Origin: Gnetum montanum
Lineage: Eukaryota > Plantae > Gnetophyta
Reading direction: 5' to 3'
Length of the DNA stretch: 64,000 bases
Assembly: GCA_015680685.1 (NCBI GenBank)
Contig: MNCI01001860.1
Coordinates: 154,472-218,471 of the forward strand
Positions within the stretch are counted from its first letter, which is position 1. Each line of letters begins with the position of its first letter. Below are positions 2,839-62,779 of the stretch, piece after piece. Both the position numbers and the translations under genes were made by a program. The notes beneath the pieces are model-generated. The model had not been told where the DNA came from and did no database searches. It saw only the letters and a program-made list of their open reading frames with translations.

Positions 2839-2843
2839 CATAC

Positions 2844-3964
2844 TAAGAAGATCATGAGATACATCCATTGGAGGGTTGCCTTTTGAAGGTTAATCATCCA
2901 AGATAAAATCTAAGACATCTTGTGCTTCCATACTTATTATTTTCTCTTCCCCTTTACTTCGTTGCTCTTCCTCCATAGCAACCTTAGCTGCTAATTCCTT
3001 CCTTTTCATTGCAACAAAACTAAAGCCAAAAAATAAAATTAGTAAACATTTTTATCAACAAAATATAATAAAAAGATAAATGTTAAAACCAAAAAAACTA
3101 AAATTCAATTAATATATACATACCATCAACAACTTGACTAGCCTTGTTGACCTTGATTGAGAGTTTCTTAGATGCCTGCTAGTTAGGAGTCGTGACATTT
3201 TCTTCAACTCTTGGCCTTTGTATCCTTTCCTTAGCAGTACCATCTACTTCTACACACGACCTTTCTATCCTTTATGCCTCGTCATGCATAGCACAAGGCT
3301 TCATCCCCATGCTATTAGGGTAATAACCACGTAGACCATTAACATTCTTAGTGGTAACGGATAACGATTCATCTGCATGCTTCATGGATGGGTCTTAGAC
3401 CTGCATTAAGTGAGCAATATATTTAGCCCAAGACTTGGGAAGTTGGAAAACATTAGGCTACCCATTTTCCATCTTTCTTGATCATCCAAAACTCCACAAA
3501 CCTTCTGAGATATGTACTAAAAATGAAAAATGCACATGATACATTGAATCAAGTTTGTTTCGGAGTTTTTATATATCACCCCTTAGACCAATAACCAAAA
3601 AAGTGGCCCAATCAAACCTAGTATCATTAGTCAATACCTTTGTCATAGCCCAAGTTTATTAAACATCTATGGTTTTTTTCAGTGATAATAGCATGGAAAA
3701 AACTCTAGAGTGGAATAGAGGATATAACTCATTTGCCTCAATATCACAATTATGAAAGGATAACGTTGCACCAAGAGGTGATTTGAGCCAAGCCTCCATA
3801 TCTTCTCTAAAGCTATGACCTTTCCTTGCTCTAATGGTCATCTTAACACCATGAGTAGGTACATCGAAGAGATTTTTAAACATTTCTTCATTGTTAAACC
3901 CCAAAATTGATTTAGTTTTTAAATAAGTATCCTTGTAAAATTCATGCATTTCAATCAATTTCAT
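2844..3964 (-). pseudogene. Fragment of an Athila-type ORF2 ('env-like'/plant transposon protein), homologous to 55789-58621, with an intron-like segment at ~3010-3123
   Basis: Shares NLF..P..G, E.WL, LYPLF and (F/Y)(D/N)WA.FL motifs with 56000-56450. Minus-strand GTATGT donor at 3123, followed by a T-rich tract with a CTAAT branch-like motif. Confidence 0.6.
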
Positions 3965-4632
3965 TTTGTATTATATATTAATTGTTTGTTTAATGTCTAT
4001 TTTAGTTTATTGTATTGCAAGTTATAGCTAATATAATTGTAGTGTGATTATGGGTAGTTTTTATATTGGTTAGTTTAATTAAGATCATTGGTGTTAATTA
4101 TAGTTGTATGTGAAACTTAGTCTTTTGAGTTTTTACATCCCCATGTGTTGCTTAAATTCATTTTATTACAATAAGGCTAAGATAATGATGGTGATATACT
4201 TTAATATCATTAGTATATACATTTGTCATATTCAATAGATGTATAAAGCCTGGATGAATAATATTTCAATTCTATCGTACTATATGTTAGCATGGTTTCG
4301 CTTACACTCTATACGAAAACACCCTTGCACTCCATCGATTTTGTTAACCTATTGTTTAATTTCTCAAATTCTAAAATATTATTAAGATCATTGTAACTGC
4401 AACATCCGCAACTTCTGGAGGCTGGCCCACGACTCTGTCACGTAAGACTTGGCAGATCTAGCACAAATTTCCCAAGACTATGCAGACAAATCTATGACAC
4501 GTACGCCTTGCCGGCTGCTTTGACGTGGATTCCAATAATACGTTGCACAATCTCAAACAAGTCTTCTCCCACGCACCAGTTTGGAATCACAGTGCACAGC
4601 AGCAATGTCCGCCATGGCCAGAACCACAACGA

Positions 4633-24255: not shown

Positions 24256-25288
24256 TGAGGTTTTGATTCAGAGCCATAATCAACAATAAATATGCAAGTG
24301 GATCATTCCTAAAGTAGGCTTATAACATAATATCCTTGCATAACCACTTCTATAGATGTCCATGGAAACCTTAGAATTTAAGTGTGGACCTTGTATTTGT
24401 TTTAAACAACAAACAACTACCTTAGTTGGGAGCCTACTGTATACTATACAAAACCATTAGGCACTTAATTGCATGTAGCAATGTTGTGAATAATCGGATG
24501 AAAAGGTATTGCAGAGATTGCGATGTGAGGTACCTTACCATGTCTACAATAGATTCTTGGGTTAATTGTGGTTAAAATGGCCATCATACCTATCTATCCA
24601 AGTTTTAGATCAAGTCCATATCTTTTCCATTGACATCGCATTGTATCATCCCGAGCTTACCAAAATAGGACCATCATAACCATATTAAAACATCACTACT
24701 TAATAAAAGAAAATAAGGAAGCAGTTTTGATTAATTAATTACTTAAACATTAAATTTTTAAGGAAACTTGACCATTGGTTAGAAGGGTATATTTAGGCAT
24801 GGCTAACATGTTTTTCTAGCCCCATAGCTAATGCTAATCCCACCAAATGAGTACCTTCAAACATTCATAACATATCTTTTCAATCACATAATGAGACTAG
24901 TTTAAGAGATTTTTGATATTCCTAGAAGTAGCCTACCTTTAGGCATGGATAACATGTCTTTCCACTGACATGATAAGGAAACACTTATTTGAGAACATGA
25001 TTCCATCAAAATTAAAATAAGAGTAAGGATATAAAAAAATGGAGTAGTAAGACCTATAGAGAAAGTGCAAAGAATTAGCTAGTCTTCTTGATGCCACTCC
25101 CTTTTTCATTTCCCCTTGATCCTTCTCCTTTTCTTCAAGGCACAATGATCATGAGTTAATTTTAGTTTAATGTGAGAATAACCATATTTATTTCATGATA
25201 AATACCTCTTATTTATAGAATATGAAGGGATAGATGATGTGGTCTCACTTCATTACATAATTATTTCCCTAATCTTCTTGATAGCACA
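24256..25288 (-). mobile_element. ~1 kb LTR-like insertion
   Basis: Absent from the paralogous copy at 61860-61870. Contains the LTR-type TATA context cctcttatttatag (25205-25218). Termini and TSD unclear. Confidence 0.5.
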
Positions 25289-26627
25289 CGATAAAAACCT
25301 AATACACTATATTGATTTCTACATCATGAATGGAAATATTATTGAAAAAAAGATAGTAAATATCCACAAAAACATAAAGCAAATGAATATAGAAAATATA
25401 AAGTTATAAAGAAAAGAAATATAATAAGAAATGAAAACATAATAAGAATTAGAAAATTTTGAAGAAATAAAAACACGCTAAAATAGAAAAATGGTAAAAA
25501 ATTTTAAAATAAAAAGTGAAAATACACTTATTAGTTTTTGATTCAAGATGAGACACTAATGTGGAGCCTACCTTAATAGACCTCAAAGGAACCCATTCCA
25601 CAATCTTCTTAAGAAATTTTAGCTTAGAAAATAAGAACAAGATAATGAATTATAGAAAAATTTCCCTTTTATAAGAAAACTCTCAAATGTAAAGAAATAC
25701 ATCAAAGATGAGAAGCCAAGCTTAACCCACACGTCTCCCAAGGATCTTAGAGGTCACATGTGTTCTCTCTCAGTCTTCAAGTGCTCTTCCTTGCTTCTCA
25801 CTTAAATTCTTCTTGCACTAGATCTCTTCTTACATAAGATCACAAAAGACTAGGCTTCTCTCTTATACTAGTCTTCTCCTTGAGAGTAACCTACTTCCTC
25901 TGATTAGCTTGATTATCCTTAGGCCTTTTATGCCTTTTTATAGTTTCTTGGTATAACCTTTCATCTTTTCTTCAATTTACTATTTAATTTGATGTCCATT
26001 AAGATCTATATGAGATGTATTGAAAAAATAAGAGACATCTTTTTTGAGTGTAGAGATGTTAGAGAAGATGCCTTGAAATTGGGAGAGACATCTTGGAGAA
26101 GGCATCTTGAAGGAGATGTCTTACCTACTAGAGAGATGTCTTGCATGTTGGGGAGACATATCTCATACCAAGGCCAAAAATAAAGATGTTTTTTTTAAGG
26201 TTTGGAACTCCAAATAGAACCCCATAGATATTGAAACCCCCTAAACTCATCAAAATAAGCCAAAAACACCCCTAAACATGCCAAAACACCTTGGAATACT
26301 AATCAAAAGGTCAACATAAGAAGACACACATAAACAGGACATACCCACACATATTCAAGATACATTGAGGATTACACAAGGGTTGGGTGATGTCTTTATT
26401 ATCTCTTCCACCCTTAAAAATGTCATGCTTAATGACCTTTCACAAGCTAAACGACACAATGCCCCCATGACTCAAGGCCATCACACTTAGCATAATAATT
26501 AAAACTTAATGCATCAAAAGCAACATAAGAATGAATATCATTTGAGGTTTAGTTTTTAGCTACTCATGTTCATGAAGGTTTATCTTCATGCTCCACCATT
26601 CTTTAATAAGGTTTATCCTCATGAAGG

Positions 26628-29600: not shown

Positions 29601-32341
29601 CTTATTTTGATCATCATGAGTATAATTAAGAGCTTGCTTACAACCATAATTTTTACACAAAAATAAAGTATTATCCTCATGATCAAATCAAACCTTACTA
29701 TGCTTGAACTTAAACTTGAATCTTCATGTGTTACTTCTTCTAAATTCTTTGGTTGATTTTCAGGAGTCTCCTCTTCTTGAAGCTTGTTGCAATCCTTATT
29801 AAAAGAGGTTAGAAGTTGAATCTCAGATTTTATGCATAAGATCTCTTCTTTCATTTCAACATGACTAGATCTAACTTAAAAAGTACTAATTTATTTTCCT
29901 TCCTAATCAAATGATGTAAAAGAAAATTTTCTTCTATAAATTCACTATACCTCTTCTCACACTTACCATCTTGTTCAGCCATATGTGAGGAATTTTCATT
30001 GATAAGCACCATGCATATGAGATGTGAATATTTGGAAAAATTGCATGCTTCTTCTTCACTTTTCTCACCATTATCCCAAATTATATAAAATTTATTCTTT
30101 ATTGGTTTCTCATCATTGGATCTATTCTTTGATTATACCTTGCTATCACTTTAATCGCTAGGACATTTGAAGGCCATATTGCCTCTTCCTCCATGAACCC
30201 AACATTGTATAGAAGAGAAATATAAGTTAGAAGAATTTTTACCTATATATCTACCTCTAAAAAGCTTGGGTCTTTGTTGAGATGCTTTCTTATTTCTTCT
30301 TGTAAGCAAACATTGTAGTTTTTTTGAGAGAAGGGTAATCTCATCTTTGCTACCCTCATCATGTTCATTTGACTCCTTCTCCTTAGAGGTAGTCTTTAGA
30401 GCAATAGGTCTTTCTTGGATTGATCCTTTTCTTATGAGATTTATTTCATAAGCAATGAGAGTGCTTTGAAGCTCTTCAAATTTCAATGTTGAGAAATTTT
30501 TGATTTCCTCCATAGTGGTGACCTTTGCTCTAAACTCCAATTGTAGAGTTATGATCATTTTGATGATGACATCACTTTCAGGCATATCCTTTCCTATCTC
30601 TCTAATACCTATAACAAGATCATTATCTCTAGATATATAATGCTTTAATTTCTCATCTTCTCTCATTTTTAGTTTATTATACTCACTTTGTAAAACTAAT
30701 AATTTCAATTGCTTAACAATATATGTTCCCTCATAAGTATCTTCTAAAGTTTGCCAAATTTCGTTGGCTGTTTTACATCTTGGTACTCTATTAAATTCAA
30801 ATTTATTCAATGCATAATATAAAAGATTTTTTACTTTTGAATCAAACATAAACTTATCCTTTTCCTTTTGTGTCCATTTGTTGCAAGGATTGATGATGTT
30901 GATGGAGCTATCAATAGGTGAAGCATAGCCTTCAAGGATTGACTCCTACACTTCAAGCTCCATGGATTCAAAGAACCCTTGCATTCTTACTTTCCAATAG
31001 GAAAATTTAAATCCAACAAACATGGGTGACTTTGTGTAAGATGTCCCCTCCATTGTTCACTCTTGAAGTTGATGATGATAGAGAAGAGTACTAGGCTCCA
31101 ATACCACTTGTGGATCAGAGGGGTGTGGTGAATAAGTTCCCCAAATTAAAACTTTGTAATACAAAAACACACACATGAATTTAATATGATTCCCCAACTT
31201 GGGTAGTCCACACTTAGAGGGTAGATTGCTAGCACATCTTTGAACTTTGTTGCTCTGAAAATGTGGTTGAAGGATCCACATCCTATATAGTCTTCAAGCC
31301 CTACTCTAGAGTACTGTGTCACAATACTAGCCACTTAATCCCACAAGGTTCCATTAGGCTTGGAATGTGGTTTCTAGGCTTCCACAACCTTTACAAGCTG
31401 AGCTTTGCTCTAGAGTATTGTACAACAGCACCAATAACTCAATCCTGCAAGAACTTGACAAGCTTAAGCAAAATGACTGCCCACAAGAAGAACATGACAA
31501 CAAGAGAATAACAATTACAAGGGATGAATGCAACTTAGTTTACTAATCCTTTTACTTTGAGGTAAAAAAAACTTTACAATTAATAAATGATAATCCAATG
31601 AAGAGCAACTAAGATTACAATGATAAATAAATGATTTGACAATGATTTTACACAAGCTTGCACATTTCCCAATGCATATGATATCTTCTTATAGCTACCA
31701 TGTCTCTAAATCCATCTTTGAACTTGTGCAATGGCTAGGCAATGGTCACTAACAGTCATAGAAGACATTTTCTTCATTCTTAAGACATCTTTCTAAATTT
31801 GACTTCTATTCTAGAAAGCCATCTTTGTTTGGGAAAGACATCTCTTTGAAATCTCCATTCTGGAATATGTCTTTGTTTGAAGAAAGAAATCATTCTAAAA
31901 CTAGCCTATATTTTGTGAAGATACCTTTGCCTAATGGAAAATGTCTGCTATTTCTTGAAGATGTCGTTGCCTGTGTTCACTCTAATTTTGCCAAGACATC
32001 TGGTGTTTTCCAAAAATTTCTTTCTTTAAATTTCTTTGTCCTTTGAATTCATCATTCCTTGTCCAAACATTTGATCTTATACATGCTTTAATAATGAAAA
32101 ATTTTCTTGTGCAATATTTGTTCCTTGTCCACATTCTTTGAAATTCTTGCATGTTTGTTTGAGACCTTGTGAATGACCTTTTCCTTTGAGCTCTAGACCA
32201 GTTCATTTCTTGTCATTTACTTAGGCTTTAGCTCATCTTGGTTTCCTATGTACATTGCCTTGTAAATAGAATAAACACACAATCATGAAAACAACCTTGA
32301 CTCCATTTTACTTAACATGTTGACACACCAAAAGGTCCACA
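26628..32341 (-). mobile_element. Nested Ty1/Copia Sirevirus-like element, gag only; 5' LTR 31109-32341, 3' LTR ~26628-27846 (outer end eroded)
   Basis: ~1.2-kb direct repeats with TGTGGA..TCCACA termini. PBS ggctccaatacca (tRNA-iMet) at 31094-31106. PPT reads catcaccaaaaaaggggatat on the minus strand (Sirevirus AGGGGGAGATT type), with a second agggggag at ~28872-28879. Confidence 0.85.
30151..31053 (-). pseudogene. Copia/SIRE gag
   Basis: MEGTSYTKSPMF.G..FSYWKVRM..F..S....V*ESILEGY..., then KNLLYYALNK.EFNRV..CKTANEIWQTLEDTYEGT..VKQ.KL..L..EY..LKM..DE, LIAYE, and a decayed zinc knuckle C...GGRG.MAFKC. One in-frame stop. Confidence 0.9.
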
Positions 32342-35300
32342 TAAGCATCTCCATAGAATGCTTCCTTAACCAAAGATCCTTTCTTTCCTTCCTTTTTCTC
32401 TTCTTCACCTTCTTACTCTTAGTGTTTGGAAGGCTATCAGTTAGCTTCCTTTCATCATTAGAACCTCAGCAACTTAGATTGCCTTCATGCTTCTCATCCA
32501 TTTTATAGCTAAGACAATCAAATTCATCACTATCAATGTTCTCACCAACATCAATAATGATCTTCTCACAATGACTATGCCAATAGCCATCATTCTCAAA
32601 ATTAGTCTTTTTCTCACTAACAATGGCATTAAAAGTCATAACATGACTCTCATTCTCATCACAATCATCAAAATCATCATGATGCTCATCAATACCTTGA
32701 ACAAATCACTACCAAGCGAAAGTGAAATAGTAGCATCCATCACACTAGCTTCAACATGAGAGACATTACTACTATCAACAAGGTAAATCTTAAACTTACT
32801 TAACTCTTCATGGCTTCTTCCATCCATATTTTATTCAACTTGATCTTTAATATGTGGCAATCTAGCCTCATTAAAGCTTGAAGGTTCAAGATTTCAAATA
32901 GGAGTTCCCAATTTCAATGTCTTCTCCTCTTCAAAGAAATCATCAACAAGATATTCATTCCATTCTTGAGGTACCGAATCAAAAGGTAAACTCTCCTCCA
33001 TGGTTTTAGTATCAAATTCATCACAAACATCATCAAATAAATCATTATTCCACATATCTTAGCTAGAAGACTCATTCCTCTCCCATGATATAACCTCAAC
33101 TTGGCTTAGAATCTCCTATTTCTTGCCACAAGGTATAGAGAAATTGTAAAAATAATTAGCATCATAACTTCTAGTGTTACTTTTGATCTTTATGAAGAAA
33201 TTCCTTGATCTTCTCTAGTCCTTTATCTTTGATATTTCGCCTTCCATGACTTATGAGGTAGGAACTCTCCTTGATCAAGATTATACACCATCTTGGACTT
33301 TGAAGATCTCTTGGTTCCCTCTCTTGAAATCTTTTATGTAGTGAGCACTCCTTTGCTTAATAAGAGATACCTGAGAACTTCTCATTGATATTTACTTCAC
33401 TAGACATTTCATCTTCTTTCTTTTCTTGATAGCTAGAAGATATTCTCTTGATTCTCCTAAAAATATTTCTTAAGTTAGTCTTGAATTTCTCCATATCTCT
33501 TCTTCTTAAAGTTTTTGCAAAATCTTGGTGCTTGTGGACCTTTACTTTGGGAAAAAGATCTTACATTTCAGTCATAAAAACCTTAAGGCAATCCATGAAT
33601 TCTAAAGCTCTTGTTCAAGCTCTATATTATTAATCTTCTTAAGATCCATACCTTTCATAGGTTTAAAGGTAAAACTTAAAGAAACAAGAATGATATCCAA
33701 AATAAAATGCAAAAATATCCACATTAATGTTTCTTTCATTGAAACAAAACAACAAGCTTCAATATAAAAGTATAAATTTCAATCAATTCACTTCAAACCC
33801 TAGCCTTTCAAATAAATTTGTGCTCAAAAATTATAAAAGAAAATTGCCCTTAAAAGATCCAAGTACTCTTTACCAATCTTAGGTTCTCCAAATTCTAACT
33901 AGCTGTAAAGCTTCAAAAGTCTTCAAAATTTCTTCAAAATCTTGATGAAGATCAACAATTCAATTGTCTCCAAAACAAGTGTGGAAACCTCTAAACTAAG
34001 TGTCATAATACCAATATAATGTGGATCCTACCTCAACAAACACTGAAAGGATCTATTCCATAATCTTCATTAGTAATTTCAACATAGGAAACAAGAACAA
34101 GGTATTGAATTGGAGAAAAAAATCTCCTTTTTCAAAGAAAACTCTCAAATGTAGAGAAATACATCAAATATGAGGTGTTAGGCTTAACTCACATCTCTTC
34201 CAAGGATCTTAGAGGTCACACATGTCTCTTCCCAATCCTAAAGTGCTCTCGCTTTCCTCTTACTCAAACTCTTCTATACAAGCTCTGAAATTTCTCTTGC
34301 ACAAACTCTCTTCTTGCATAAGATCACAAATGACTAGCCTTCTCCTTAAGACTAGCCTACTTCCTCTAATTATCTTGATTAGCCTTAGGCCTTTGGTGTC
34401 TTTTTATAGCTTCTTGGTGTGACCTTTCATCTCCCTTCTAATTTACCATTTAATTTAATGTCCATTAAAATTTGTATGAGACATCTTAGAAAAATAGGAG
34501 ACATCTTTCCTGAGTGCAAAAATGTCAGAGGAGATGCCTTGAAATTTGAGGAGACATCTTGGAGAAGATGTCTTGCTTGCTAGAGAGACATCTTGCATGC
34601 TTAAGAGACATCTCTCTTGCTAGGGCCAAAAATAAATATGATTGTTTTAAGGTCTAGAACCTCTTGATGTCTCTAAATAGGTTATGATAGATCCTTGAAC
34701 CCCCTAAACTCATCAAAATGAGATCAAAACTCCCTAAACATGCCAAAACACCCTAGAATCCTCATCACAAGGTCAACACAAGAAGACACACATAAATAGA
34801 AAACACACACATATCCAAGATACATTGAGGGTTATACAAGGGTTGGGTGATATTCTCATCAGGCACCTCCCTCATGACTAAACTTATGGGTGTGCATTTA
34901 GAAGATGTACTTTAAATGTCCTTGGTTATACACCATAAGTTTCTTTTTTATCATCTTTAATGATTTATGTTTGTGCTTATTAGCATATTTAACATTGATG
35001 ATAATCAAGTTTTGGTCATTTGGAGATATATATTCAACTAGAATAGAAGATATTTATATTTAAGAAGGTCTAGATATGTTTTATTATGCTCTATTTTAGT
35101 TTTTAGATCTCTTTGTTTATCACTTTCTTCTAATGTATGGTTAGGGTGTAAGATGTTCTTTTGTAAGTTTTTAGTTTTGTTCATTTTCTTAAGACAAGAG
35201 CTAATAAGTGGTTGGGATATTTTAATGCATCTTTTGGATAGGGTGTTATTCTTATTTTCTAGCCACTAGATGTCTTTTGGTTTAGTGGCTATTGTATAGA

Positions 35301-42970: not shown

Positions 42971-43480
42971 ATGAAGGTAAGGAGCTCACAGGGCTCCGCC
43001 TGGCCTTGCTTTGTGTCGTTTAAAAGATGATAACAATTTATTGTAGCATTTCTTGCTTGAAACTGGATTTTCCTGGATAACATCTCACTTACTTTTGTTT
43101 TTTGTTCTGGGTGGGTGCAGAAAGTTGTTGTCAAAGTGCCTCCTGTTGAGAATCCCAAAAAGAGGCAAAAGGCGTTCGCAAGTGTTGCTGGAATGGAAGG
43201 TGTGGTGCAGGTCTCTGTGAATAACAAAGATGGTATGATTACGGTTGTAGGGCAGACAGATCCCGTTGCCATTACACGCAGACTCAAAAAATTGGGTTTC
43301 GCTGATCTCATCAGCGTTGGCCCTGTTGGCCCTGCAAAAGATGTGGAGAAGCCTACCCGTAACCCTACAGTTACTCCTGTGCTTGCACATGAACCTCACA
43401 TAATTTACTGTCCTTGGCCTGCAGAGTACCGGTGCTACGATGAACAGTACGGTCCCATTTCGGCTTGCACCATTATGTGA
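42971..43480 (+). CDS. HIPP: Heavy-metal-associated isoprenylated plant protein (HIPP39-like), 121 aa; exons 42971-42976 and 43121-43480
   Basis: ATGAAG|GTAAGG donor and a pyrimidine tract ending TGCAG at 43120 give MKKVVVKV...RQKAFASVAGMEGVVQVSVNNKDGMITVVGQTDPVAITRRLKK..ADLISVGP (HMA fold). A Pro/Tyr-rich tail ends in CaaX CTIM*. No lesions. Confidence 0.93.
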
Positions 43481-48439: not shown

Positions 48440-50574
48440 TGATGAGACAACTTGTTTCGTCTTATTTTTTGTGTTGGTCGAAAGGCCTATGATAAATCAT
48501 GGTATATAAAATAACTATGATATCGTAACTATAATATCATAGCTCTATTTACAATGTCATAGATAAGATATAGTGGGCCATGATCATGCCTATAAATACA
48601 ATCTCACTGTCATGTCAAATTTATCTTTGGTTAATCTTATAGCATAACTCTTTGAATTTCATTTTACGAATTTAGAGTTAGTTGTAAGTACCTGCACTAT
48701 AGTGATAAACAATTGTACAACATCTTTATTCAAGTGGAATGTACCTGAACACACTTCATGTATAGAAATAATGATCAAGATTGTTCTTTGTCACTACAAC
48801 ATTTCACTTAGACTATATTTACTTACTATTGAATTTACTTTTCATTTTCACTTTACATTTCTAGAATCTATTAGTTATTTGGTAAAAAGTATGATCGATT
48901 TCAAGCATGCAAATATAATCGTCTAGTAACCCAAATAGTAACTTAGCTTGTGTTTCTCAATTGTATGTAACTTGGTAATCCCAAGAATGGTTTTATAAGC
49001 CTAAAGCATGTATAGTAAATTAGGAATACTTGCTTATTGTTAGTCTAGATAGTATTTGATTTCCATTATCCTTTAGTCACTAGAATTCACACTCTAGTAA
49101 TACTTTAGCTCATTAACATAAATTAATCATATGCCTTACTAAGAGCTAAATCATACATCATGATTTCTACTAACTTTGGTGAGAAAAAAAATGATTAAGA
49201 ACTTACTATTAATATACTAGTATATAATATTGCCCCATACAAAGATTATGATTTGGTCACATTTGTACACTTATGACTTATATGATTAGGTGTTGGAAAC
49301 TCTCGCTATTCATCATTAGTGTTGTTGTTGGGAATGGTATCAATATATAGTAATTAGTTGATTTTATTAGATTTCGCTATGTTGTCATCTTACAATTTAT
49401 CTTTTAGACATATAATAATTCCTAAGCACACATTTAAATACTAATCGATCAAACATGACTTTGACAAACAAAGTAAATTTCCCACCTTATAAAAATATTA
49501 ATAAAAGCAAAGATAAAATTTATGCTAAATAAAATTATAATGGACCAATGCAAACAAGAATTCATATGCTCACATCAATCTATATTATCCTAACTTGACT
49601 TTTATCTTTCACCAAGATGAGTAATTCAAATGGAGAGACTTACAAGGTAAGATTGTACTACCATCAAATTGTTCAAATCCATCTATGCTCTAAGTATCTC
49701 TACTTAGATATAGTCTTGGCCACATACATGGAGGTTACTAGGTTACTAAGAATATGACTAGACCTTATTAGCCAACTGAAGCCCAAGCTAGAAGAGATGT
49801 TGTTATGAAAGCAAGGTAATAATAAGAGAAATGAAAACATGCACCTCAAGTGATCTTACTCTTGAAAAAGGAACATATGGAATATCAAGCTATAAATTGT
49901 CATCATAACTGATGCGATTCTTACCCATATGTTCTATACATTAAAGATCCCATGCAACAAAATCTTTATTTAGCCTTAGCAAAAATACTATTAAGAAATG
50001 AGATAAGCCCCAAAATAAAGAATCATCCAAGGACTACAGACTCTGGTATATCTAAAAGAGAAGACTCAAGGGGCCATAGAAGAAATGCAAGCTAACATCA
50101 CTCTCTAAGCCTTTCATCCTCTTCATCACCTTCATTAATAGATTATAATAAGGATGAATTGAGACATGAAAGCAAGACTCAATGAAGGGATCAAGATTAT
50201 ATGCTTGATAGGGAAAGAAGCCAAGATCATTATAAATAGCCAAAAAGAGAAAGAAATCATGATGAAGATGAAGAAAAAGAAAGAGGGAAAAGGAATAGGA
50301 TAAGAAATGAAGTAGAGCATCAAAAGGATCATGATCACTATAATAGAGATGATGAACCCTTATTAACCACAAGAAGCATGATCAATATTAGTGAGATCAT
50401 TTACATTCTAACTAGGTATCAAAGGGACAATCCCATTAAGTGATTAAGTATAAACAACATTCTTAAATTTAGAGGATATAATGCTAATCCATAACACCAC
50501 CTTCAAGCTTTTAATGATGTCTTTGTACTTTCAAATATTGAAAATAAGTGGCAAAAACTCAAGCTATTTCCAAG
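48440..50574 (+). mobile_element. Truncated Athila-like element: 5' LTR 48440-49315, PBS, start of gag region
   Basis: TGATGAG...TTCATCA LTR and a decayed PBS ttagtgttgttgttgggaat. Internal sequence colinear with 53100-54350. Confidence 0.8.
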
Positions 50575-51900: not shown

Positions 51901-53319
51901 CTTATTATTGCTAGTGGTGGCAGACTTCCCAACCATGACTATTATGTTGGTGCTTTTCTTTTGTGCAAAACATTCTTGAAGGATGGAGTAAAACTACTTC
52001 TCATTAACATTTCTAGTAAGTGAACATGCAATGTTTGATTTTTAATTCTTGTATGTGCTACTATTTGTACATAGGAATATCCTCCTCTACCCTTTTCTTG
52101 GCCTCTTTTCCTTACCTTGTAAAAGACCTTCAACCTTAGGTACTTTGTTTAGCATCATCTAACATCACCAAAGAATCAACATTAGTTTTGATAAATTTTC
52201 CTTGGTTATTAACCTTGATAAAATAATTTTTTGTTGTAATGCGATATAATATCCCTGATATCATAACTACGATGTTGTAGCCCATCCTATATCATTGTTG
52301 ATGTGATGTCTTAGGATCTATGTAGCCCTATAAAGAATAGCACTTGGGCACACAAACATGAAATTTCCATTTCAACACTTAGCCAAACTCTTGCAATTTT
52401 TTTTTTGTAGTTTAGTAATAGAGTGAATGCTCATAGTGTGGTGTTGAGCAATTGTACGGTATCTTTATTCGAGTGAATTGTACTTGGACATAGTTCATGA
52501 TCGACAATAAAGATTGAGATTGTTTTTCATCATTGTAGCATCCATTTAGTTTTCTATTTTTTAATTAGAATAATTTTCTTATTTTTCAAGTTAATCATTT
52601 ACAATTCAAGCACTTTATTTTACATGTTATTAGTAAGAGGTATGGATACAACTAGTTTCAAGTGCTAAGTGTAGTTATCTAGTGACCCAGTGGTGGCATT
52701 ACTTGATTCAATTAGTAGTAATACCACTTGGTAATTCCAATGATAACTATATGAGTTCAAGGCATGTATGGTAGGCTAGGACCATATATCCATTACACTA
52801 GGCTAAGTTAGATTTATGTTTTCCTAGTTTACTAGACTTAGAGTTTTATCTTCAACCATGTTTACCATTAGGAGCATTAAGAGCCTTACAACATCAACTA
52901 ATCATATGCCTCACTAAGAGTTAAATCATATGTACAAACATCACTAACTCGAAGTGGAAAGACAATAGTCTGAAACTTAACATCAATTACTAGCATAATT
53001 ATATTTTCCATTCCTAGATTATGATTTGTTCATGTATAAAGACTCAGGACTTGTATGAAAGAGTGTCGGGATACCTCCACCACTCATCATTGGCATTGTT
53101 GCCAAGGATGTGTCAATGTATGCTAAGTAATTGATCTTATAAAGTTCATTGTATCAAGAACCACAAAGTCTATCCTTATAACTTTAATTAATCTTAATAA
53201 CACACATATAACTAAGCATCAAATTACAAGATGGCTCCAACACTTAAAGAAACATTATCACCTACTTGAATATCCACAAAGAATAAATGAAAAAACACAT
53301 GATGATGATGACTAGAGTG

Positions 53320-55500
53320 CACCAATGCAAACATGAATCTCATATCCTCACACCAATTATTATTACCTTGATTTTACATTCATCTTTCATCAAGATGAGA
53401 AAATGAGATGGAGAGACTTGTAGGACAACATTGTTTTACCTCCAAAGCATTCAACACGAGCCATGGTTCAAGCAACCTTAAGGGAGATGAATCTAAGCCA
53501 TGCATAAGAGGGATATCATGTGACCAAACACATGACTAGATCATATCAACCCATAAAGGCACAAGTACGAAGAGATGTTGCTATGGAGATAAAGCATGAA
53601 AATAACAAGGGAAAGAAAGTCAATCCTAATGTTGTCCTAGAAGAACTTGATGGCAATGCATTCTTAGTAGGAAAACTCTACCATAATCATGGAGTTGATT
53701 CACAAACACCTATTATACATTTGGAAGAACTTGTCAAAGTACAATTGCATTTGGCCCTTGTAGATACACCAAGAAGAGAGGCAGATGACTCTAAACATAG
53801 ACAGAACTCAAGGCCTAGAGCTTTTGTAGGATCACAAAGAGATGAATTTTAGAGTCAAAAAAGGAGAACTAGTTGGCATCATTTCCAAACTACTTCATCT
53901 TCCATCTTACGATCATCAATGGACTCTAATAGAAGGGAATGGAGGTGCAAAGATCATGATAGGGAGAGACATTAGGCTCATGATAGGCATGAGTATCATC
54001 AAAGGTATCTTGATGAAGAAGATGATGAGTATCAACTATGAAGAGATAAGAATACATGAGAAGAAAGAGAGCAATATGAGTACCAAAGGAGACATCACTA
54101 CAATAGAGCCTAAAAATCCAATGATCATGAAGAGCCCCTATTGACCACTTGTAGCATGATCAACATTAGGGAAGTAGTATATATTCCAACTAGGCATGTG
54201 AGGAATAATCACATCAAGAAACTTGATATGAATAATATTTTGAAATTTTAAGGTGGTTACAATGCATATCTACAACATTACCTTCAATAATTTCATGATG
54301 TCTATGCCCTTCAGAACATAAAAAGTGACTAGCAAAAGCTCAAGTTGTTTCCCAGAATACTTATCAAAAAGGTAAAGAGCTGGTATAGATCATTGGAACT
54401 AGAATCAATCAGAAGATGAAGTACCATGCTCAAACTCTTCAATGATAAATATCAAACCTATTCAAGGGTTTCCAATGCCAAAAAGAAAATCCAAGGATGA
54501 AGGAAAGGGGCACACAAATCCCTTGATGTGGAAATGGATAGATACTACTCTCTTCTACATAGATGCCTAGGCCATGGATTCTTGCAAATGGAATAGCTTA
54601 GGCATATTATTAATGGGTTAAGAACTAAAACTAGAGAAACCCTTGGGGTTTACACCTAATGAAGACTATTAGAAATGACCACCCATAAAATTTAAAGGCT
54701 AGTAGACTAGGTGGTGAAGGAGGAAGGTGAGTTGAAAAAGAGAGAATTACCAAAGGAATATAATTGAGATCCATCAATCAAAAAATGATATGTATGAATA
54801 TGTGACAAGAAAGGGGAAGAAACCTTAGAGGATGTGATCCAAAAGAAAGCTCTACGAATTTAAAAATTTGTCAATGATATAGCAACTAAGGTACAAGAGA
54901 TATGGGACTTAGTGGATGAAAAGTTCATTACAACTTTGAACATTGTAGAAGAAAGAACTAAAAAGTTCTTTAATAAGGGTAAGGATATGGAAAAAGAAAG
55001 ATACTATGGACATGAAAACTATAAGTAGAAAGGCAAAGTTACTTTAGTGGAAGAATGTAATAACTCAAGCTCACAAGATGAGGAAGGATGCAAAGTGTGC
55101 CAATATGAACATCCCAAGGGATGTTGCCCTATCATGACACATTTTCAAGAATCTGGGGCATATTCACTTAACCCAAGATTCATCAAAAAGCAATGCCAAG
55201 ATAGTTACCTTACCCTCAAGGTAACTTTAAATAGTCATTCCAAGTAGCTTACTACCCAAGTGGAGCTTATCCTCAACCATAGGAGTAGTACTAGCAGTAG
55301 TGGCAACAACCATAAGCATGGGAAATACCACTGCCAAGGCAATAGTATCCATTTAGGTAACCAAACCCTTATGGAGACTATGTGTAGTGTCCAATATCTC
55401 TAGGGAATGTGTTAGTTCATACTTCTCAACATTATCCACTTGAATATTATAAAACTACCACTTCTAGTATGGATTGCAATCCATATGTACATCAACCAAC
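53320..55500 (+). pseudogene. Decayed gag with R/D/H-rich N-terminal extension and a Cx2Cx3Hx4C knuckle
   Basis: KLKLFPRILI.KVKSWYRSLELESI..., LFNDKYQTYSRV, CKVCQYEHPKGCCP. Many stops; boundaries approximate. Confidence 0.7.
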
Positions 55501-55788
55501 AACAGGTACAGTAAGTCAATCTATATATACATGCCAAGAGTTAGAAAATTTTTCATTCTTCCATTTTACAAGAAGAGAAGTTTTTGTTGTTTTTTTGAGC
55601 TTTAGCAACCAAACTTCATGAAGCTATAACTTTCTTACTATAGCTCCAATTTTTGTAATTCTTGAACCCTGTTGATTATAGATTACTCAACTTAGTCATG
55701 GGGGAGGGGTCTCAAACTTCATGAAGCTATAACTTTCTCACCGTGTACTATATTTTTTAACTTTTTGCTCTATGTTTTCCTACAACAG

Positions 55789-58621
55789 TCATCCCTTCTG
55801 ATGAAGTTACCATTGTATCAGGGCATACTGAGGCCACCCTATTTATGAAATATGCAGAGGTAGAGTGGTCACAAAAATGGTTGCAGATGAAAGCTCCTGA
55901 GTTGATCATCAGCCACCTTACCCAAGCAGGTTTGATGGACATGTTCACTGCTTTGACTTCCAATGTTCTGGCGATTGAGATGATCACCATTGTTGATTCT
56001 TTCAGTGATGATGCTTCCCATTCTTTCAATGTTTGAGGAGTCAAGGTATCTTTCCACCTGACCACTAAGTTCCTTTCCAATCTTTTTGGCAGGCCAATGG
56101 ATGGTGCTAGGGTGGCCATAGATAAAACAACTAAAGAAGGCCAGGTTCTAAAAGAGCTTGAAGAGTGGTTAGGCATGTCTCAAGGTCCTAAAGGTTTTGC
56201 TATGCAAGATGATACCGAATCAATGGAGATGAACTTCTTGTATCCTCTCTTCTAGGCACGGGCATTCCTTAAATCTCTCTCTTAAGGAAGGAACCTTGGG
56301 ATCGAGTTTGCACATGTTGTACATGCAGTCTTAGAGTTAGGCATGCATTACAACTAGGCATAGTTTCTTAGATCTAGCTTTCATGAAGAGATTATCAGAT
56401 TACGGTCAAACATCCATGTCAAATCCCACTTCACATTTGCTTTCTTCGTGGGGTACCTACATAGGTTTTCTGAGTTCTTAGTAGTTTATGTTGATAACCG
56501 TTATATATTGAGGGATCGTTCACAGTTGTCCCACCCCTGGATTCATCATTTTTTAGCACCATTAGATCTCAGGACCCACCCAAAGGCATCAATGAATCAG
56601 TGTCTGTCACTACTGGGGGTGCAGCTTGTCATTCCCATCATTCCCATGATAGCTTGGGATTGGAACTTCCTATACTACACACGTCTGTTAAAAGGGCTGA
56701 ATGTCTGATTTGTGAGATCGTTGGGAGGTTAAAGGAGAAGGTGAAGAGGAATGAACACCCAAAGGAGCCTACTCCAGAGGTGAGACCACCAAGAGAGAAG
56801 AAGATCCACTTTGTACTACTAGTGGAGGCTAAGTATTTTATTTTATTGTTACATATTTACTTTTTTATTGTTTTTTGGATTATATGTTATTAAATGTACA
56901 TATATGCTATGTCATACTAATTCTAGGATTTTGGTATTATTTAGAGGAAAGTCCTGAGAGGGAGAGAGGTCATGGCCTCGATGGTTAAAGCAGAAGCGGT
57001 CATCACAGGGCCAAAGGAAGAAGGAAAAGAAGGGGAAGAAGCAATGGAGGAACCTCCTACTCCTCAAGAGGAAGATGTGACAAGCATCGTGGGGACAAAG
57101 CTTGCGGAGGCTTTGGATGCACTTAGGCATTCAAGTGATGAAAGAGGTGTCTTTGATGGTTTCTTCTAGGGATCTTTGCAACTTGGTTATCCACCCAAGC
57201 TAACCAACAAAGGGCTTTTTGGTATGTTCCTTTTAGCTCAATCCATATTTTGGTACCCTTTTTACTTTTATGTGTTATTTTTCTATTATCTTGATTTTTT
57301 CTAGCATCAGAGGTAGATGTTGAGATTTCTAAGGCACATACATCCTAGGCAATGGTGTTAGGATCATAGGTTCTGATTGAGGTGACCTCCCCTACTTGTC
57401 CCACATCAACTGACCAACTAAGGCCATGGCCTAAGATGCCTAGTAAAATGGACTTTGTCACAGGCATCGTTAATGATGTGGTCACTCCCCTACAATAGGC
57501 TCATCCAGATCTAAGTATATGTCTATTACGTATTTGTGCTAAGTGTCTGGGTTTATTGTGTTTCTTTGCTTTCATTGCTGATTATAGCTGATTCATATGT
57601 GGGATACTTACACCTACAAGCACCAAGCTCCAATGGGATCCTTCTGAGGCAACTCATATTGATGCCCTCTCTAAAATGTCAAGGAATATTGAGTAAGTCC
57701 CTAGAAAGGTTTACGATGCAGTTTTTGGTTGTGTCGTACAAAACACTAAGTCACTTTGGACTTGTAGGCATTCAGTTGAATATCTATGGGACAAGGTACA
57801 CTGATTGAAGGAAGCACTAACAAAGAAGAGAGAGGAGAAGAGGGATCTCCAATCCTATTATGATTTTGCTGTTGCATAGAAGTCTAGTCATAGCATCTGG
57901 TGCACATCTGAAATCACCTATGCACGTTACTGGATGATTTTAAATAGCAAAGTGTAGGTGACACAGGATTTAGCATAACAAAGGGCACAAATGGATTTTC
58001 TGAATAGGAAATGTCACGATTGGAAATCCTTTGTTGCTAAGGTACATAAGTGGGGTCAAGACCAAAAGGACCACACGCATCAGTACAAGAAATAGTTAAA
58101 GGAGGAGTCAGTTGAACATCGTCAGATGGAGATGTTCATTGATGGGCTTGGCTTGCGTCCTCCTTACGATAGGTTTTCTGAGTGCATCGAGGTGGAGGGA
58201 TCTCCTGAGAGAACCATTACTATCACCTCCGGGGAGGCTTCGATAGGCATGTTCTCTCTTGAGCGCCCTACCTGGACTTCGGTGGACAAGGTTAAAACCT
58301 TGGCTGGTATTGATCTTGGCTTAGAGGAGGATTGGATAAATGTGCCTGAGGAAGAGATTCTACGGCATTTGGAGGCCATCCTAAGGCCTTCCTTACTTGT
58401 GAGTGTTTTATTATGGCACTTATTTTTATATGGTTTTATTGTTTTCATTGTTAATGTTACTGTTTTTTTTTAGTTTTGCATTCATGATTTGCTTTATTAC
58501 TCTTACCTCTTTTTTTGTCTTTTTCTTGGCTCTGTTATAGGGACATGTTAATGATGGAGTTGGCCCCAATAGAGCGAGAGTAGATGATGAAGAAGATCTT
58601 GGGGACCTGCACCCTTCATGA
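55789..58621 (+). pseudogene. Spliced ORF2 (Athila env-like/plant transposon protein domain plus charged region); predicted introns 56833-56946, 57222-57304, 57515-57587, 58399-58540
   Basis: Acceptor (pyrimidine tract + CAG) at 55788. Domain GLMDMF...V*GVKVSF....LSNLFGRP. Four T-rich GT-AG segments whose removal joins the flanking reading frames; residual stops are mostly TAG/TGA from CAG/CGA. Confidence 0.65.
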
Positions 58622-59013
58622 GCTTACTATTAATCAAGCTTTAGCTATTAAATGTTTTGGATTTTTGGATGTTTAATGGAAATGTATGATGGACAAATGT
58701 AATAATATGGATCTAATCATGGCATAATGTGTTGGAATTTTATTACCATATTCATGTATCATTTTTTATTTTATATGTTTTTTTTTGTTTTCTCAAGTAT
58801 TATCGTGAACATATGCATCTAGCTAAATGTAAAATGAGGGAACAAAAAGTAAATCCAATATTTGTAAAAGAGGAAAGTAATGAGAAGGCATGAATTGAAA
58901 TTATAACTTGTAACTTGTATGTAGCTAGCTAGAGGAAGTTCTTGTATGTAGCTAGCTAAAGGAATGTTCTTGTTATGCCACCAACTAATATTTTTGGAAC
59001 AAGAGATGCTCAA

Positions 59014-60350
59014 ATGCTCACTAGTACCTCAATGAATCTTACCAAGCATGAAGATGTTCTAGATAGATTACTGCAGATGGTTTAGTTCATGAAGAATCTT
59101 TTCAATATCCCTAGTGATATCACTGTAGTGCAATATAATTTTCTTACCACTAAAGGAAATTTGATCATGGCCAAACAAAGGCAGAACATGAAAAAAATAA
59201 GGTGTAGAGGCTATAAGAAGAAGTAGAAATCGTGAGAGTCGAAAGTAGAGACCCTACATAATTTGTGATCCTAAACCAACTTAACCAATTTAGAATAGAT
59301 TAGGTGAGGTAGCTCATTGTCTGCAACATCAAGGTGGAGATGGAAAGAGAGAAGGCTATGTAAAATGCCTCATTGGCAGAAGGCTAGATATATGCATATG
59401 CCAAAGCTCTCACAACTTTAGAGGAGGAGAATAAAAAGCTCACTGCTGATAACACAATGTTGATAGATGTAGAGAAAAAAAAGAATTTTCTTGAGGAAAG
59501 TATTCATTAATTGTGAGAAACATTAATCAAAGTAAACCATGATATTAGTAGATTAGCCTAAGAAAATAGGATTATATTAGTGGAAGATGTCTATGCAATT
59601 AGATAGAAATCAACCATTGGGATAATCATGTGATAAGATGAGGCCAAGAGGCATGAAAAGCTCAAAGAGCATTTTAGGGATCAAATGGACATGTACAATT
59701 AGATAAATGAGAAAGAAATTGAGATGACAAAAGCTAATATCAATTCCATCATAGCCTAGACTTCAGATTGGTAGCCCATCCTAGATAGTTTAGCCCATGT
59801 CCACCAAGTAAAGATAAAGAAGTAAAGACCTACATATAGAATATCTTATAGAATACACTGGGTTAGCAATTCTCGGATATGCTAACTTGGCCATGTTAAC
59901 AACAAGACAACCTTGGAATTAGCTAGAGTAGTAGGTAACAACTGTGTATGTGATGTATTAGAAAGATTTTGTTGACAAAAAAGACACATTTTGGAAACTA
60001 CATGTGGCAAACTCTGAGCTCAAAATAGTAAAGGCTAGCTACTAAGGCAAAAATGATGTAGCAAAAAACCTAGCATGCCAAATGTTAAACTACCAAGAAT
60101 TGAGAAAGGTGTCCAAGGCTTTTGAGAAAGAAAGATAGCAGGTTTTGGTGTGGTACCTAAAAGTAAACATTCCTGTAGTTTCCATGCCCATGGGATATAC
60201 TGACTCTTTCAAACATCAACCAATTAGCATAGATAGTACATGATCATAGAATAGAGGAAGAAAAGCTTCAATTACTCATGAACTATTACAAATTCCAAAA
60301 GCCTAATGATAAAGGGAAGAAGCTAATGGAAGAGCCTCCACTACCCTAAA
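59014..60350 (+). pseudogene. Decayed ORF3, coiled-coil-like
   Basis: Purine-rich frame such as MEREKAM..ASLAEG.IYAYAKALTTLEEENKKLTADNTMLIDVEKK...EAKRHEKLKEHFRDQMDMY, with stops at Gln-derived codons. Confidence 0.5.
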
Positions 60351-62779
60351 CATAAGGCTACATCGAGCTACTTCAAGTTTTGTTTTGTTTTGTTTTTTCA
60401 TGTTTACTGTGTCATTTTGTAAACATACCAATGTGTTATTGATAGAGTCATGTAAATATTTAGTTGTGTCAAATTAAGTCTACCTCCTTATTTTTTGAGG
60501 GACTCTATCCTCATTTTGTTTTAGCTTGAGGATGAGTTTCTAGTTAGTCATGGGGGTATAATAAAATCATTTTTTATTGTAATGCAATATCGTATCTATG
60601 ATATCATAGCTATGATGTCATAGCCCATCCTACATCATCATTGACGCAATGTCTTTGGATTTATGTAGCCCTATAAATACTAGCACTTGGATGAAAAAAC
60701 GTGAACTTTTCATTCCAACAATTAGCTGTAACAATTTTATTTTGTAGTCCAGTAATGGAGTGAATGCATGCATTGTGGTATTGAGTAGTTGTACGGTGTC
60801 TTTATTTGAGTGAATTATACTTGGATACAATTTATGATCGACAATAAAGATCGAGATTGCTTTTCATCATTGCAACATCCACTTAGTTTTCTATTTTTCA
60901 CTTAGAATAATTTTCTTGTTTTGATAGTTAATAATTTACAATTAAAGCACTTTATTTTACATATTATTAGTAAGAGGTATGGATATGACTAGATTTGAGT
61001 GCTAAGTATAGTTATCTAGTAACCCAGTAGTGGCATTGCTTAATTCACTTAGTAGTAATATCACTTGGAAATTCTTGTATCAACTACATGAGTTCAAGGT
61101 GTGTATGGTAGGTTAAGATTGGATATTTATCATACTAGGGTAAGTTAGATTTATGTTTTCTTAGTTTACTAGACTTAGAGTTTATCTTCAACTATGTTTA
61201 CCATTAGGAGCATTAAGAGCCTTGAAACATCAACTAATCATATGCCTCACTAATAGTCAAAACATACACTCAAACTTCACTAACTTGAAGTGGGAAGATA
61301 GTGATCTTGAACTTAACATCAAATTAGCAGCATAATTACATTATCCATGCATGAATTACAATTTAGTCACATGCAAACACTCATGACATGTATGGTAGAG
61401 TGCTGGGATACCTCTATCGCTCATCAAACCCTTTCTAAATTCTTAGTTAGCTTAAAATAAAACAACTTTAGCATGTAAGCTTAAGATAACTTAATAATAA
61501 TGTTGTCCAAGACTCTAAGATAACTAAAATCATCAAGTTGTTAAGTTATTTTAATTATTTTTACTATTAGTCACCATAATTTTCAAAAATAGGGTGTTAG
61601 AAAATTTTTAAAAAACACATCCTTAACCTCCCTACCCTCCCTCCCCCCTTCCCCCACCCAAAAATAAATAAGCTTAACTCTAAAAATGCACAAGTTTTTC
61701 AATAATTTAAAACAAAGGTCTAGTTCATAATATGGCTAATAAATGTTGAATTTAGAGGAAATTTCAATAGAAAAGCATTAAAGATAATTCAAAATTGATG
61801 AGAAGTAGTTCCAAACTTATGCATAATGTTTGAGAAGTTTTCCATGATGCCCTGAAAGATGTGAAACAAAGACCCAACACATGATGTTAATGTTTGCATC
61901 TTGATTGGCAATATTATTAACAAAAACATAGTAAACATCCATAAAAAATAAAGAAAATGACTCAAGTAAAGGGAAAATTATAATGAAAATAAAAAATACA
62001 AGAAATGAAAAACATATTAAGAATCAGAAAATTTTGAAGAAATAGAAAAATGGTAAACAATTGTAAAACAAAAAGTAAAAAATGTACTGATTAGTTCTTA
62101 ATTCAAGATGAGGCATCTCTTCGATGACTAAAATTATGGGCAAGCATTCAAAAAATGGACCACACATTTACTTGGTTATATACCATAAGTTTTCCATTTA
62201 TCATCTTTAGTAATTTAAGTTTTCTCTTGTTAGCATATTTGACATTGATGATAATTAGGTTTTGATCATTTAGAGACATATATTTAGATAGAATTGAATG
62301 TATTTCCTTTTTATAGGGTCTAGATATGTTTTCCTTTTGATTTTCTATTTTAATTCTTGAGTCTCCTTGTTTAACATCTTCTTTTATTGTATAGTCAAAG
62401 TGTAAGATCTCGTTCTGTAAGTTCTCTATTTGGTTCATTTTCTTACTAGGTTGAATGTTTCCATGCATCTTTTGAATGGTTTGGCATTCTCATTTGTGAG
62501 CCACTAAATGTATATTGGTTTAGTGGATATTGTATAAACTTAGTTTTCCACACACACTTGTGAAACACCGTGAAAATTTCGAGGCCTTGACAGTTCGGCA
62601 AAAAAGCTGGTGACTCAGACAAAGGGCTGCAACAAGGCACGGCACAGCAATTTCCTTTTCAACTGAAGGTCTGTCTCACCACACTACATGGCACAACACA
62701 AGCAAATTCCAGAAGAAGGAGCAAAGTGATGGGTACACGATGGCAAAACTTCCAACCTTGCGTGTTATCTATTCCGCAA

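What the first reader, a model, noticed from the sequence alone, without database searches (positions are those of the whole stretch)
55740..58621. Multi-intron gene carried in sense orientation inside an LTR retrotransposon
Seen: within the TSD-bounded element 52216-61426 there is a splice-acceptor-like tract ending CAG at 55788. Four T-rich segments follow with canonical borders: 56833-56946 (GTATTT..CTAAT..AG, phase 2), 57222-57304 (GTATGT..CTAG, phase 1), 57515-57587 (GTATAT..ATAG, phase 1) and 58399-58540 (GTGAGT..ATAG, phase 0). Removing each joins the flanking frames, ending ...RPSLL|GHVNDGVGP...DLHPS*. Known: Athila ORF2 is predicted to be expressed from a spliced subgenomic RNA and Ogre elements have one intron, but sense introns are normally purged by retrotransposition. 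Inference: this family keeps a fully unspliced genomic RNA while making a multiply spliced accessory mRNA, like a complex retrovirus. The protein could act in RNA export/splicing control or anti-silencing.
Basis: partly seen in the sequence, partly recalled or inferred. Interest (0 to 1): 0.8.

Follow-up and report, generated by a model that had tools for sequence, protein, structure and literature searches.

The report
Four-intron gene inside plant retrotransposon
An old, broken plant jumping gene of the kind that copies itself through RNA carries a forward-facing extra gene with four introns that are cut out in RNA from related copies, which would mean the family keeps its full-length RNA unspliced while making a separately spliced message, an arrangement described for a worm retrotransposon and for complex retroviruses but not found in our searches of the plant literature.

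Summary
Real, with corrections. The 9.2-kb element (LTRs 83% alike, 5-bp target duplication with one mismatch, tRNA-Asp-like primer site, gag, no pol) holds a sense-strand five-exon gene of about 790 codons. RNA of the same species, from related copies (mostly under 90% alike), skips intron 4 exactly (51 reads in four runs, plus a contig), supports intron 2's donor, and moves two borders: intron 3 ends at 57619, not 57587, and intron 1 is likely 56829-56944. A distant second copy in the window (29% protein identity) has a T-rich intron at the matching place and phase. The gene follows an exact second copy of the polypurine tract and an acceptor, the slot of the Athila extra ORF. The protein has no detectable relative and no membrane segment; this copy is dead. 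Not shown: that the spliced RNA comes from LTR-bounded copies, the 5' leader, and the function. Best reading: family-borne accessory gene, spliced mRNA separate from an unspliced genomic RNA.

The parts
52211..52215 (+). left target-site duplication (AACCT)
   Evidence: 4 of 5 letters match the right copy
52216..53089 (+). 5' LTR (TG...CA)
   Evidence: 83% alike to the 3' LTR, 104 of 147 mismatches are transitions
53091..53109 (+). primer binding site, tRNA-Asp-like (Athila type), decayed
   Evidence: 14 of 19 letters match the FIDEL PBS printed in PMC2844528, all 5 differences are transitions
53292..55500 (+). gag pseudogene; no protease, RT or integrase found after it
   Evidence: PF03732 E 6.6e-4, 20.3 bits, under the 24.1 cut-off; two relatives in the window pass it; 24 stops in 636 codons; motif scan of six frames found no pol here
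55692..55704 (+). internal second polypurine-tract motif, identical over 13 letters to the one before the 3' LTR
   Evidence: 4 matches in the window at up to 1 mismatch, 0.05 expected
55740..55788 (+). pyrimidine tract and CAG, predicted splice acceptor in front of the gene
   Evidence: sequence; same module after the internal tract in a gag relative; not tested by reads
55789..56828 (+). exon 1: predicted globular N-terminal domain (about 258 codons), frame shift near 56560, then linker
   Evidence: 29% identity to a second copy at 3874-3459 and 32% over 60 residues for the part after the shift; RNA depth
   Evidence: one X7 contig nets 116 removed letters; phase and place match the second copy
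56945..57221 (+). exon 2, acidic linker
   Evidence: RNA depth
57222..57304 (+). intron 2 (GT..AG, phase 1)
   Evidence: in frame; loose ends in X4, X5, X6, X7 run to the donor and go on with non-intron letters, an X8 contig ends at 57221, depth 0.5 against 13-22 beside it; acceptor not pinned by a joint
57305..57514 (+). exon 3
57515..57619 (+). intron 3, corrected (105 nt, phase 1); acceptor decayed in this copy
   Evidence: joints 57513>57620 (X6, 2 reads), 57513>57625 (X7 contig), 57513>57634 (X4, 3 reads) with 1, 6 and 14 letters between; in frame
57620..58398 (+). exon 4: charged, predicted coiled-coil region and acidic tail
   Evidence: 6 stops in 259 codons against 12 and 25 in the other frames; heptad score; highest RNA depth
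58399..58540 (+). intron 4 (GT..AG, phase 0)
   Evidence: exact joint 58398>58541: X4 13 reads, X5 8, X6 5; same joint with 21 diverged letters in X1 (25 reads) and an X7 contig
58541..58621 (+). exon 5 with the stop codon
58622..58835 (+). T-rich stretch, likely 3' UTR with an internal poly(A) site
   Evidence: depth falls to zero past 58748 in X4 and X6; one-strand pile in X1 at 58071-58688; inferred
58902..60350 (+). second decayed ORF, predicted long coiled coil, little RNA
   Evidence: depth mostly under 2, at most about 5
60544..60556 (+). 3' polypurine tract motif
60559..61426 (+). 3' LTR
61427..61431 (+). right target-site duplication (AACCC)
2840..3970 (-). distant, truncated second copy of the gene (exon 1, intron at 3123-3020, start of exon 2)

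Best explanation
An old, pol-less, Athila-like LTR retrotransposon carries a sense-strand five-exon accessory gene whose four introns are spliced in RNA from related copies, and the family likely keeps the introns because it copies itself from an unspliced full-length RNA while making the protein from a separate spliced mRNA that likely ends before the 3' polypurine tract and LTR and so would not be reverse-transcribed. Shown: the element, the five exons, splicing on the sense strand in relatives, the internal polypurine tract with an acceptor-like tract in front of the gene, the death of this copy. Inferred: that the gene travels with the LTR family (about 0.75); that the spliced mRNA is a separate, internally ended and therefore non-replicating RNA (about 0.55); that the full-length RNA escapes splicing often enough to be the template. 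For the protein (soluble, predicted globular N-domain, acidic linker, coiled coil) I commit to a nuclear, self-assembling chromatin factor that protects the family from silencing, in the manner of VANC (about 0.35), probably captured long ago as DNA with its introns; an RNA-export role is the main rival.
For: Exact GT..AG joint of intron 4 in three runs and the same joint in two more; joints for introns 3 and 1; donor of intron 2. Reads come from several subfamilies: 973 of 1122 laid reads of X4 are under 90% alike and different loose ends stand at the same places. Four of this copy's in-frame stops are read otherwise among the 40 difference rows shown of 806. A 29%-identical second copy has a T-rich GT..AG segment 30.3 codons after the aligned block against 26.3 here, both phase 1, so intron 1 is old. 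The gene sits behind an exact second copy of the polypurine-tract motif, a feature reported for Athila4 and Calypso together with a predicted acceptor (PMC2829016, passages). No inverted or direct repeat longer than 10 letters links the two flanks of the gene. RNA depth stops shortly after the stop codon and is low over the next ORF; run X1 piles on one strand at 58071-58688 (34 against 1.4). No membrane segment. Athila-domain and VANC proteins are modelled as coiled-coil pentamers (PMC13547354, passage); VANC genes bear introns (PMC5735166, passages).
Against: No read or contig was seen to link the spliced gene to an LTR or gag (lists are cut). Only one LTR-bounded copy was available; the second copy is cut at both ends. 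A gag relative in the window (56% identical over the core) has the internal tract and acceptor-like module but no trace of the gene. Low depth in introns and past the stop may reflect faster divergence under the 80% threshold, not splicing or an RNA end. The library type of X1 is not on record; reading it as 3'-tagged is my inference, and relatives may have the LTR right after the gene. No sequence or structure search gave the protein a family, so the likeness to PF20167/PF03078/VANC rests on a recalled pattern only.
Confidence: 0.58

Rival explanations
1. The gene belongs to a family that spreads as DNA (cargo of a Mutator, CACTA or Helitron element, or a host gene family) and landed in this one LTR element or a small branch; the spliced reads come from those DNA-borne copies, so no intron ever had to survive reverse transcription.
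For: No read links the exons to an LTR. The second copy shows no LTR context of its own. A gag relative lacks the gene. Intron-bearing accessory genes are normal in VANDAL DNA transposons (PMC5735166, passages). Helitron insertions leave no target duplication (recalled).
Against: The gene starts 85 letters after an exact second polypurine tract, in the sense and slot of the Athila extra ORF. No terminal repeats or duplication around it. No transposase was found in the element. Decay is of the same order as in gag (15 stops in 790 codons against 24 in 636).
Confidence: 0.2
2. Same anatomy, but the protein is a Rev/CERV-like factor: made from the spliced mRNA, it binds the unspliced genomic RNA and brings it out of the nucleus, which is itself what preserves the introns. 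This rivals the function, not the structure.
For: The only multi-exon precedent found in an LTR element, CERV of C. elegans Cer1, is a five-exon product needed for export of unspliced RNA (PMC10309623, passages). An element with four efficient introns needs some way past nuclear retention (inference); export of plant LTR RNA has not been studied directly (PMC12786077, passages).
Against: No basic cluster or NLS-like run was found in the exons and the protein is net acidic (simple pattern on a decayed copy). CERV shares exons with gag and has no relatives outside nematodes; here the coding exons lie wholly after gag. A gag-only relative seems to have spread without the gene (it could borrow it in trans).
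Confidence: 0.2
3. The gene is family-borne, but nothing special protects the introns: splicing of the full-length RNA is simply incomplete, as for the single Ogre intron, and intron-less copies arise and sit in the genome beside intron-bearing ones.
For: Some reads lie inside intron 4 (depth 2.6 in X4, 1.4 in X6). [quoted passage not shown] RNA contigs without introns could in part come from intron-less copies.
Against: This copy keeps all four introns and a very distant relative keeps intron 1; repeated passage through partly spliced RNA should strip short introns one by one (inference). Spliced forms outnumber intron reads about tenfold at intron 4 (with the divergence caveat).
Confidence: 0.15

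Closest known systems
Athila / Calypso / Bagy-2 extra ORF (ORF2, 'env-like'; Ty3/gypsy, Athila clade)
   Same: Sense ORF in the 3' half, tRNA-Asp-type primer site, an extra polypurine tract and an acceptor in front of it, expression from a spliced subgenomic RNA (PMC7197481, PMC2829016, PMC2844528, passages; PMC7264820, first third).
   Different: There one splice brings a single-exon ORF to the leader; here four short introns split the coding sequence. No membrane segment, no Pfam hit to PF03078 or PF20167, short LTRs (0.87 kb), no pol.
CERV of Cer1 (C. elegans Ty3/gypsy)
   Same: Five-exon mRNA from an LTR element whose genomic RNA stays unspliced (PMC10309623, passages).
   Different: CERV exons overlap gag and the polyprotein frame, so its 'introns' are coding sequence of the genome; here the introns are host-like, T-rich, non-coding and lie in a separate gene after gag. 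No homology expected or tested.
Ogre and EVADE/BARE1 introns
   Same: Sense-strand spliceosomal introns kept in plant LTR elements (PMC12786077, passages, names these as the notable exceptions).
   Different: One intron each, tied to Gag versus Pol output; not inside an accessory gene.
Antisense accessory genes (Grande gene23, RIRE2, Retand TRP28, Boty)
   Same: Family-borne extra genes between the coding region and the 3' LTR (PMC7264820; PMC11963269, passages).
   Different: Antisense, so any introns are invisible to splicing of the genomic RNA; here the GT..AG joints are on the sense strand.
VANC anti-silencing proteins of VANDAL (Mutator-like) transposons
   Same: Fast-evolving, intron-bearing accessory gene; conserved domain plus variable region; coiled-coil assembly modelled (PMC5735166, PMC13547354, passages and section 10).
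   Different: DNA transposon host; no sequence or fold match was obtained here; DNA binding untested.

Membership tests
LTR retrotransposon (non-autonomous) | paired TG..CA LTRs, 4-6 bp target duplication, primer site, polypurine tract | tested here: met
   duplication 4 of 5; the 3' LTR start has decayed from TG
Athila clade (Ty3/gypsy) | RT/RH/INT phylogeny places it in Athila | not testable with these tools
   the element has no pol; best database match of the gag profile is 24% identical, E 6.9e-5
Athila clade (Ty3/gypsy) | primer site complementary to tRNA-Asp | tested here: met
   14 of 19 letters match the FIDEL site, differences all transitions
Athila clade (Ty3/gypsy) | extra polypurine tract ahead of the additional ORF | tested here: met
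   feature from PMC2829016 passage
Athila clade (Ty3/gypsy) | Retrotrans_gag (PF03732) gag | tested here: inconclusive
   E 6.6e-4, below the curated cut-off; relatives in the window pass
Athila clade (Ty3/gypsy) | LTRs over 1.2 kb and length over 11 kb (as listed in PMC2844528) | tested here: not met
   0.87 kb and 9.2 kb; a pol-less derivative would be shorter
env-like ORF | transmembrane segment | tested here: not met
   highest 19-residue hydropathy 1.38 in any exon
PF03078 / PF20167 / PF10536 accessory domains | profile match | tested here: inconclusive
   no Pfam family at E up to 1 or 10 for any exon or for the second copy; sequences are decayed and models were unusable
CERV / Rev-like export factor | product of a multiply spliced mRNA of the element | tested here: met
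   four introns spliced in relatives; link of those RNAs to an LTR not shown
CERV / Rev-like export factor | needed for export of unspliced genomic RNA | not testable with these tools
   needs experiment
VANC | encoded by a Mutator-like element with its transposase | tested here: not met
   LTR context, no transposase, no terminal repeats
VANC | sequence-specific DNA binding and demethylation | not testable with these tools
   needs experiment

The most novel reading that the evidence does not exclude
A plant LTR lineage has evolved complex-retrovirus-style gene control: a fully spliced five-exon mRNA makes an element-encoded factor that shields or exports the unspliced genomic RNA, so that four host-like introns have survived reverse transcription since before its members diverged to under 30% protein identity. 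It would be the first plant counterpart of Rev/CERV and a handle on how plant retroelement RNA leaves the nucleus unspliced.
Probability: 0.18. Interest if true: 0.88.

Novelty: new variant of a known kind. Interest (0 to 1): 0.66.

Why it matters
Passage through RNA removes sense introns, and a 2025 review says plant LTR elements generally lack introns apart from Ogre and EVADE, and that their nuclear export has not been studied directly (PMC12786077, passages). A family that holds four short sense introns in an accessory gene, still spliced in today's RNA, makes that open question testable: compare spliced and packaged RNA of one family. It also suggests that surveys which call extra ORFs only as uninterrupted frames of 250 codons or more (PMC6317226, methods passage) can miss a class of spliced accessory genes.

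Tried and rejected
No genome was held, so copy number, LTR linkage and intron-less copies could not be counted. No RNA holder was listed by the word index; runs came by species label; 6 of the 8 listed runs were laid (X2 and X3 were not). Protein searches without result: Pfam, 5.8-billion word search with exon 4, near and longer lengths, phmmer of exon 1 over 1.84 billion representatives, PDB sequences, Atlas by features for two short open frames (hits under 0.9 to an unrelated methyltransferase piece, set aside; none). AlphaFold models had mean pLDDT 35 and 33 and the fold search gave nothing; no fold is claimed. Metagenome scans found no copy; the viral-contig scan with the gag alignment did not run. 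Rfam none; no tRNA. A translated-DNA match between intron 2 and the second copy's intron (E 0.007) was set aside as T-rich noise. Wright and Voytas 2002 was not held.

Full report
The element. Positions 52216-61426 are one insertion. The LTRs (52216-53089, 60559-61426) agree in 720 of 867 aligned letters, with 104 of 147 mismatches transitions, and are flanked by AACCT and AACCC. A paralogue of the target sequence is contiguous across the insertion point. The primer site matches the tRNA-Asp site printed for the Athila-like FIDEL element at 14 of 19 letters, all differences transitions. A gag pseudogene follows (PF03732, E 6.6e-4, under the cut-off; two relatives in the window pass). No pol was found. 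The host is a plant by inference from these features; the lineage was not determined, and the gag profile found one database protein only, 24% identical.

The gene in DNA. Four T-rich segments lie inside 55789-58621; 500 shuffles gave a mean of 0.29 such segments and never 4. Each stretch between them has one frame with far fewer stops. The copy is dead: 15 in-frame stops in about 790 codons and a frame shift near 56560.

The gene in RNA. Eight runs of the same species label were listed, none shown by the index to hold the stretch; six were laid at 80% likeness (X5 and X6 are one sample; about 26% of X4-X6 and 2% of X1 were read). The reads are from relatives: in X4, 973 of 1122 laid reads are under 90% alike and none reaches 99%. 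Intron 4: the exact joint 58398>58541 (GT..AG) stands in 13 reads of X4 (11 starts), 8 of X5 and 5 of X6; X1 (25 reads) and an X7 contig show 58377>58541 with 21 other letters, the length of the missing exon end. Intron 2: loose ends behind 57202 (X4 20 reads, X5 17, X6 13, one X7 contig) resemble the last 19 exon letters and go on with letters that are not the intron; an X8 contig ends at 57221; depth in 57240-57355 is about 0.5 against 13-22 on either side. Its acceptor is not pinned. All joints read GT..AG on the + strand, the gag strand. Against over-reading: introns diverge faster, so low intron depth alone proves little; some reads do lie in intron 4 (depth 2.6 and 1.4). Among the 40 difference rows shown of 806, 19 are third, 14 first and 7 second codon positions, a weak trend, and 4 fall on stops of this copy.

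An old intron. A second, truncated copy lies on the minus strand at 3970-2840 (29% identity, E 4e-9; 32% over 60 residues for the later part). It has a 104-base, 59% T segment with GTATGT and TTTAG ends, 30.3 codons after the aligned block against 26.3 here, both phase 1. Its next exon needs a further one-base shift, so this copy is decayed too, and it is cut by other sequence on both sides.

Does the gene travel with the element? For: an identical 13-letter polypurine motif stands at 55692, 85 letters before the acceptor-like CAG, and at 60544 before the 3' LTR; an extra tract and a predicted acceptor are reported for Athila4 and Calypso (PMC2829016, passages); no repeat over 10 letters links the gene's flanks; decay is of the same order as in gag. 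Against: no listed read or contig joins the exons to an LTR or gag, the 5' leader is unseen (an X7 contig has about 370 letters upstream of the acceptor position that were not placed), and a gag relative on the minus strand (37245-35845) has the same tract-plus-acceptor module but no gene after it. No genome was held. I put family carriage at about 0.75.

How it likely works. If the gene is family-borne, the template for reverse transcription must keep all four introns. Depth ends soon after the stop codon (zero past 58748 in X4 and X6) and is low over the next ORF, and X1 piles on one strand over the last exons (34 against 1.4). Read as a 3'-tag library, which is my inference, this points to a poly(A) site near 58700, ahead of the 3' tract and LTR. 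A spliced mRNA ending there could not be copied, so splicing would not erode the family, provided the read-through RNA from the 5' LTR escapes splicing. How it escapes is not shown. The protein is soluble (highest hydropathy 1.38), net acidic, with heptad-rich stretches in exon 4. Nothing matched it and the models were unusable. The helix, hairpin, helix pattern of the N-domain recalls PF20167/PF03078/plant mobile domains from memory only. Since Athila-domain and VANC proteins are modelled as coiled-coil pentamers and VANC descends from a chromatin factor (PMC13547354, passages and sections 6 and 10), I favour an anti-silencing role (0.35) over a Rev/CERV-like one (0.2).

Comparison with print. 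Seen as passages: PMC7197481 (Athila ORF2 from a spliced subgenomic RNA), PMC12786077 (plant LTR elements generally lack introns, save Ogre and EVADE), PMC10309623 (CERV, five exons, needed for export), PMC6317226, PMC11728184, PMC11963269, PMC1142308, PMC2633040, PMC2829016, PMC2844528, PMC5735166, 10.1101/2020.02.20.956714; PMC7264820 first third. Ten searches listed no plant LTR element with a sense, multi-intron accessory gene; most hits were seen only as listings. The library lacks most subscription papers (Wright and Voytas 2002 not held; Steinbauerova 2011 not seen), and I read no supplements; the transcript models in the supplement of PMC13547354 and of the bioRxiv preprint could hold multi-exon gypsy accessory genes. 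The scan's own notes held nothing on this family and several antisense intron-bearing genes in other genomes.

Verdict. It works like an Athila extra ORF taken much further, toward CERV; membership in Athila cannot be fixed without pol. New variant of a known kind, interest 0.66; the deciding test is a genome-wide count of LTR linkage and intron loss.

Noticed in passing
window 2840-3970 (-): Distant truncated copy of the same gene with an intron at the matching place; an LTR (about 2838-1975) with a tRNA-Asp-like primer site and gag (1668-889) sits in its second exon.
   Followed up: yes
window 38700-23200 (-): Gag-only relative with the same internal polypurine-tract and acceptor-like module but no accessory gene; split by nested insertions at 25557-34851 (own LTR pair) and 24258-25293. 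A second copy of its 3' part is the target into which the studied element inserted.
   Followed up: partly
window 58902-60350 (+): A second decayed ORF with a long predicted coiled coil between the spliced gene and the 3' tract; little RNA laid on it; how it would be expressed is unclear.
   Followed up: partly
window 55610-55635 and 55713-55738: A 26-base direct repeat brackets the internal polypurine tract.
   Followed up: no
window 60525-60559: Many RNA reads match only the 35 bases around the 3' polypurine tract and go on into other LTR starts, so the motif is shared by several transcribed families.
   Followed up: no
window 26629-32339: LTR pair (80% alike) around a 264-residue minus-strand ORF at 30151-30945 that looks like a copia-type gag (recalled, not tested), nested inside the other elements.
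   Followed up: no
window 48500-50572 (+): Third gag relative with LTR and primer site, cut off inside gag by a fragment of another LTR.
   Followed up: partly
window 43061-43480 (+): Open 139-residue frame in a CpG-richer island that looks like a heavy-metal-associated-domain host gene (recalled, not tested).
   Followed up: no
window about 11520-11990: Assembly gap (run of N) right after an LTR fragment related to the one at 2471-2742.
   Followed up: no
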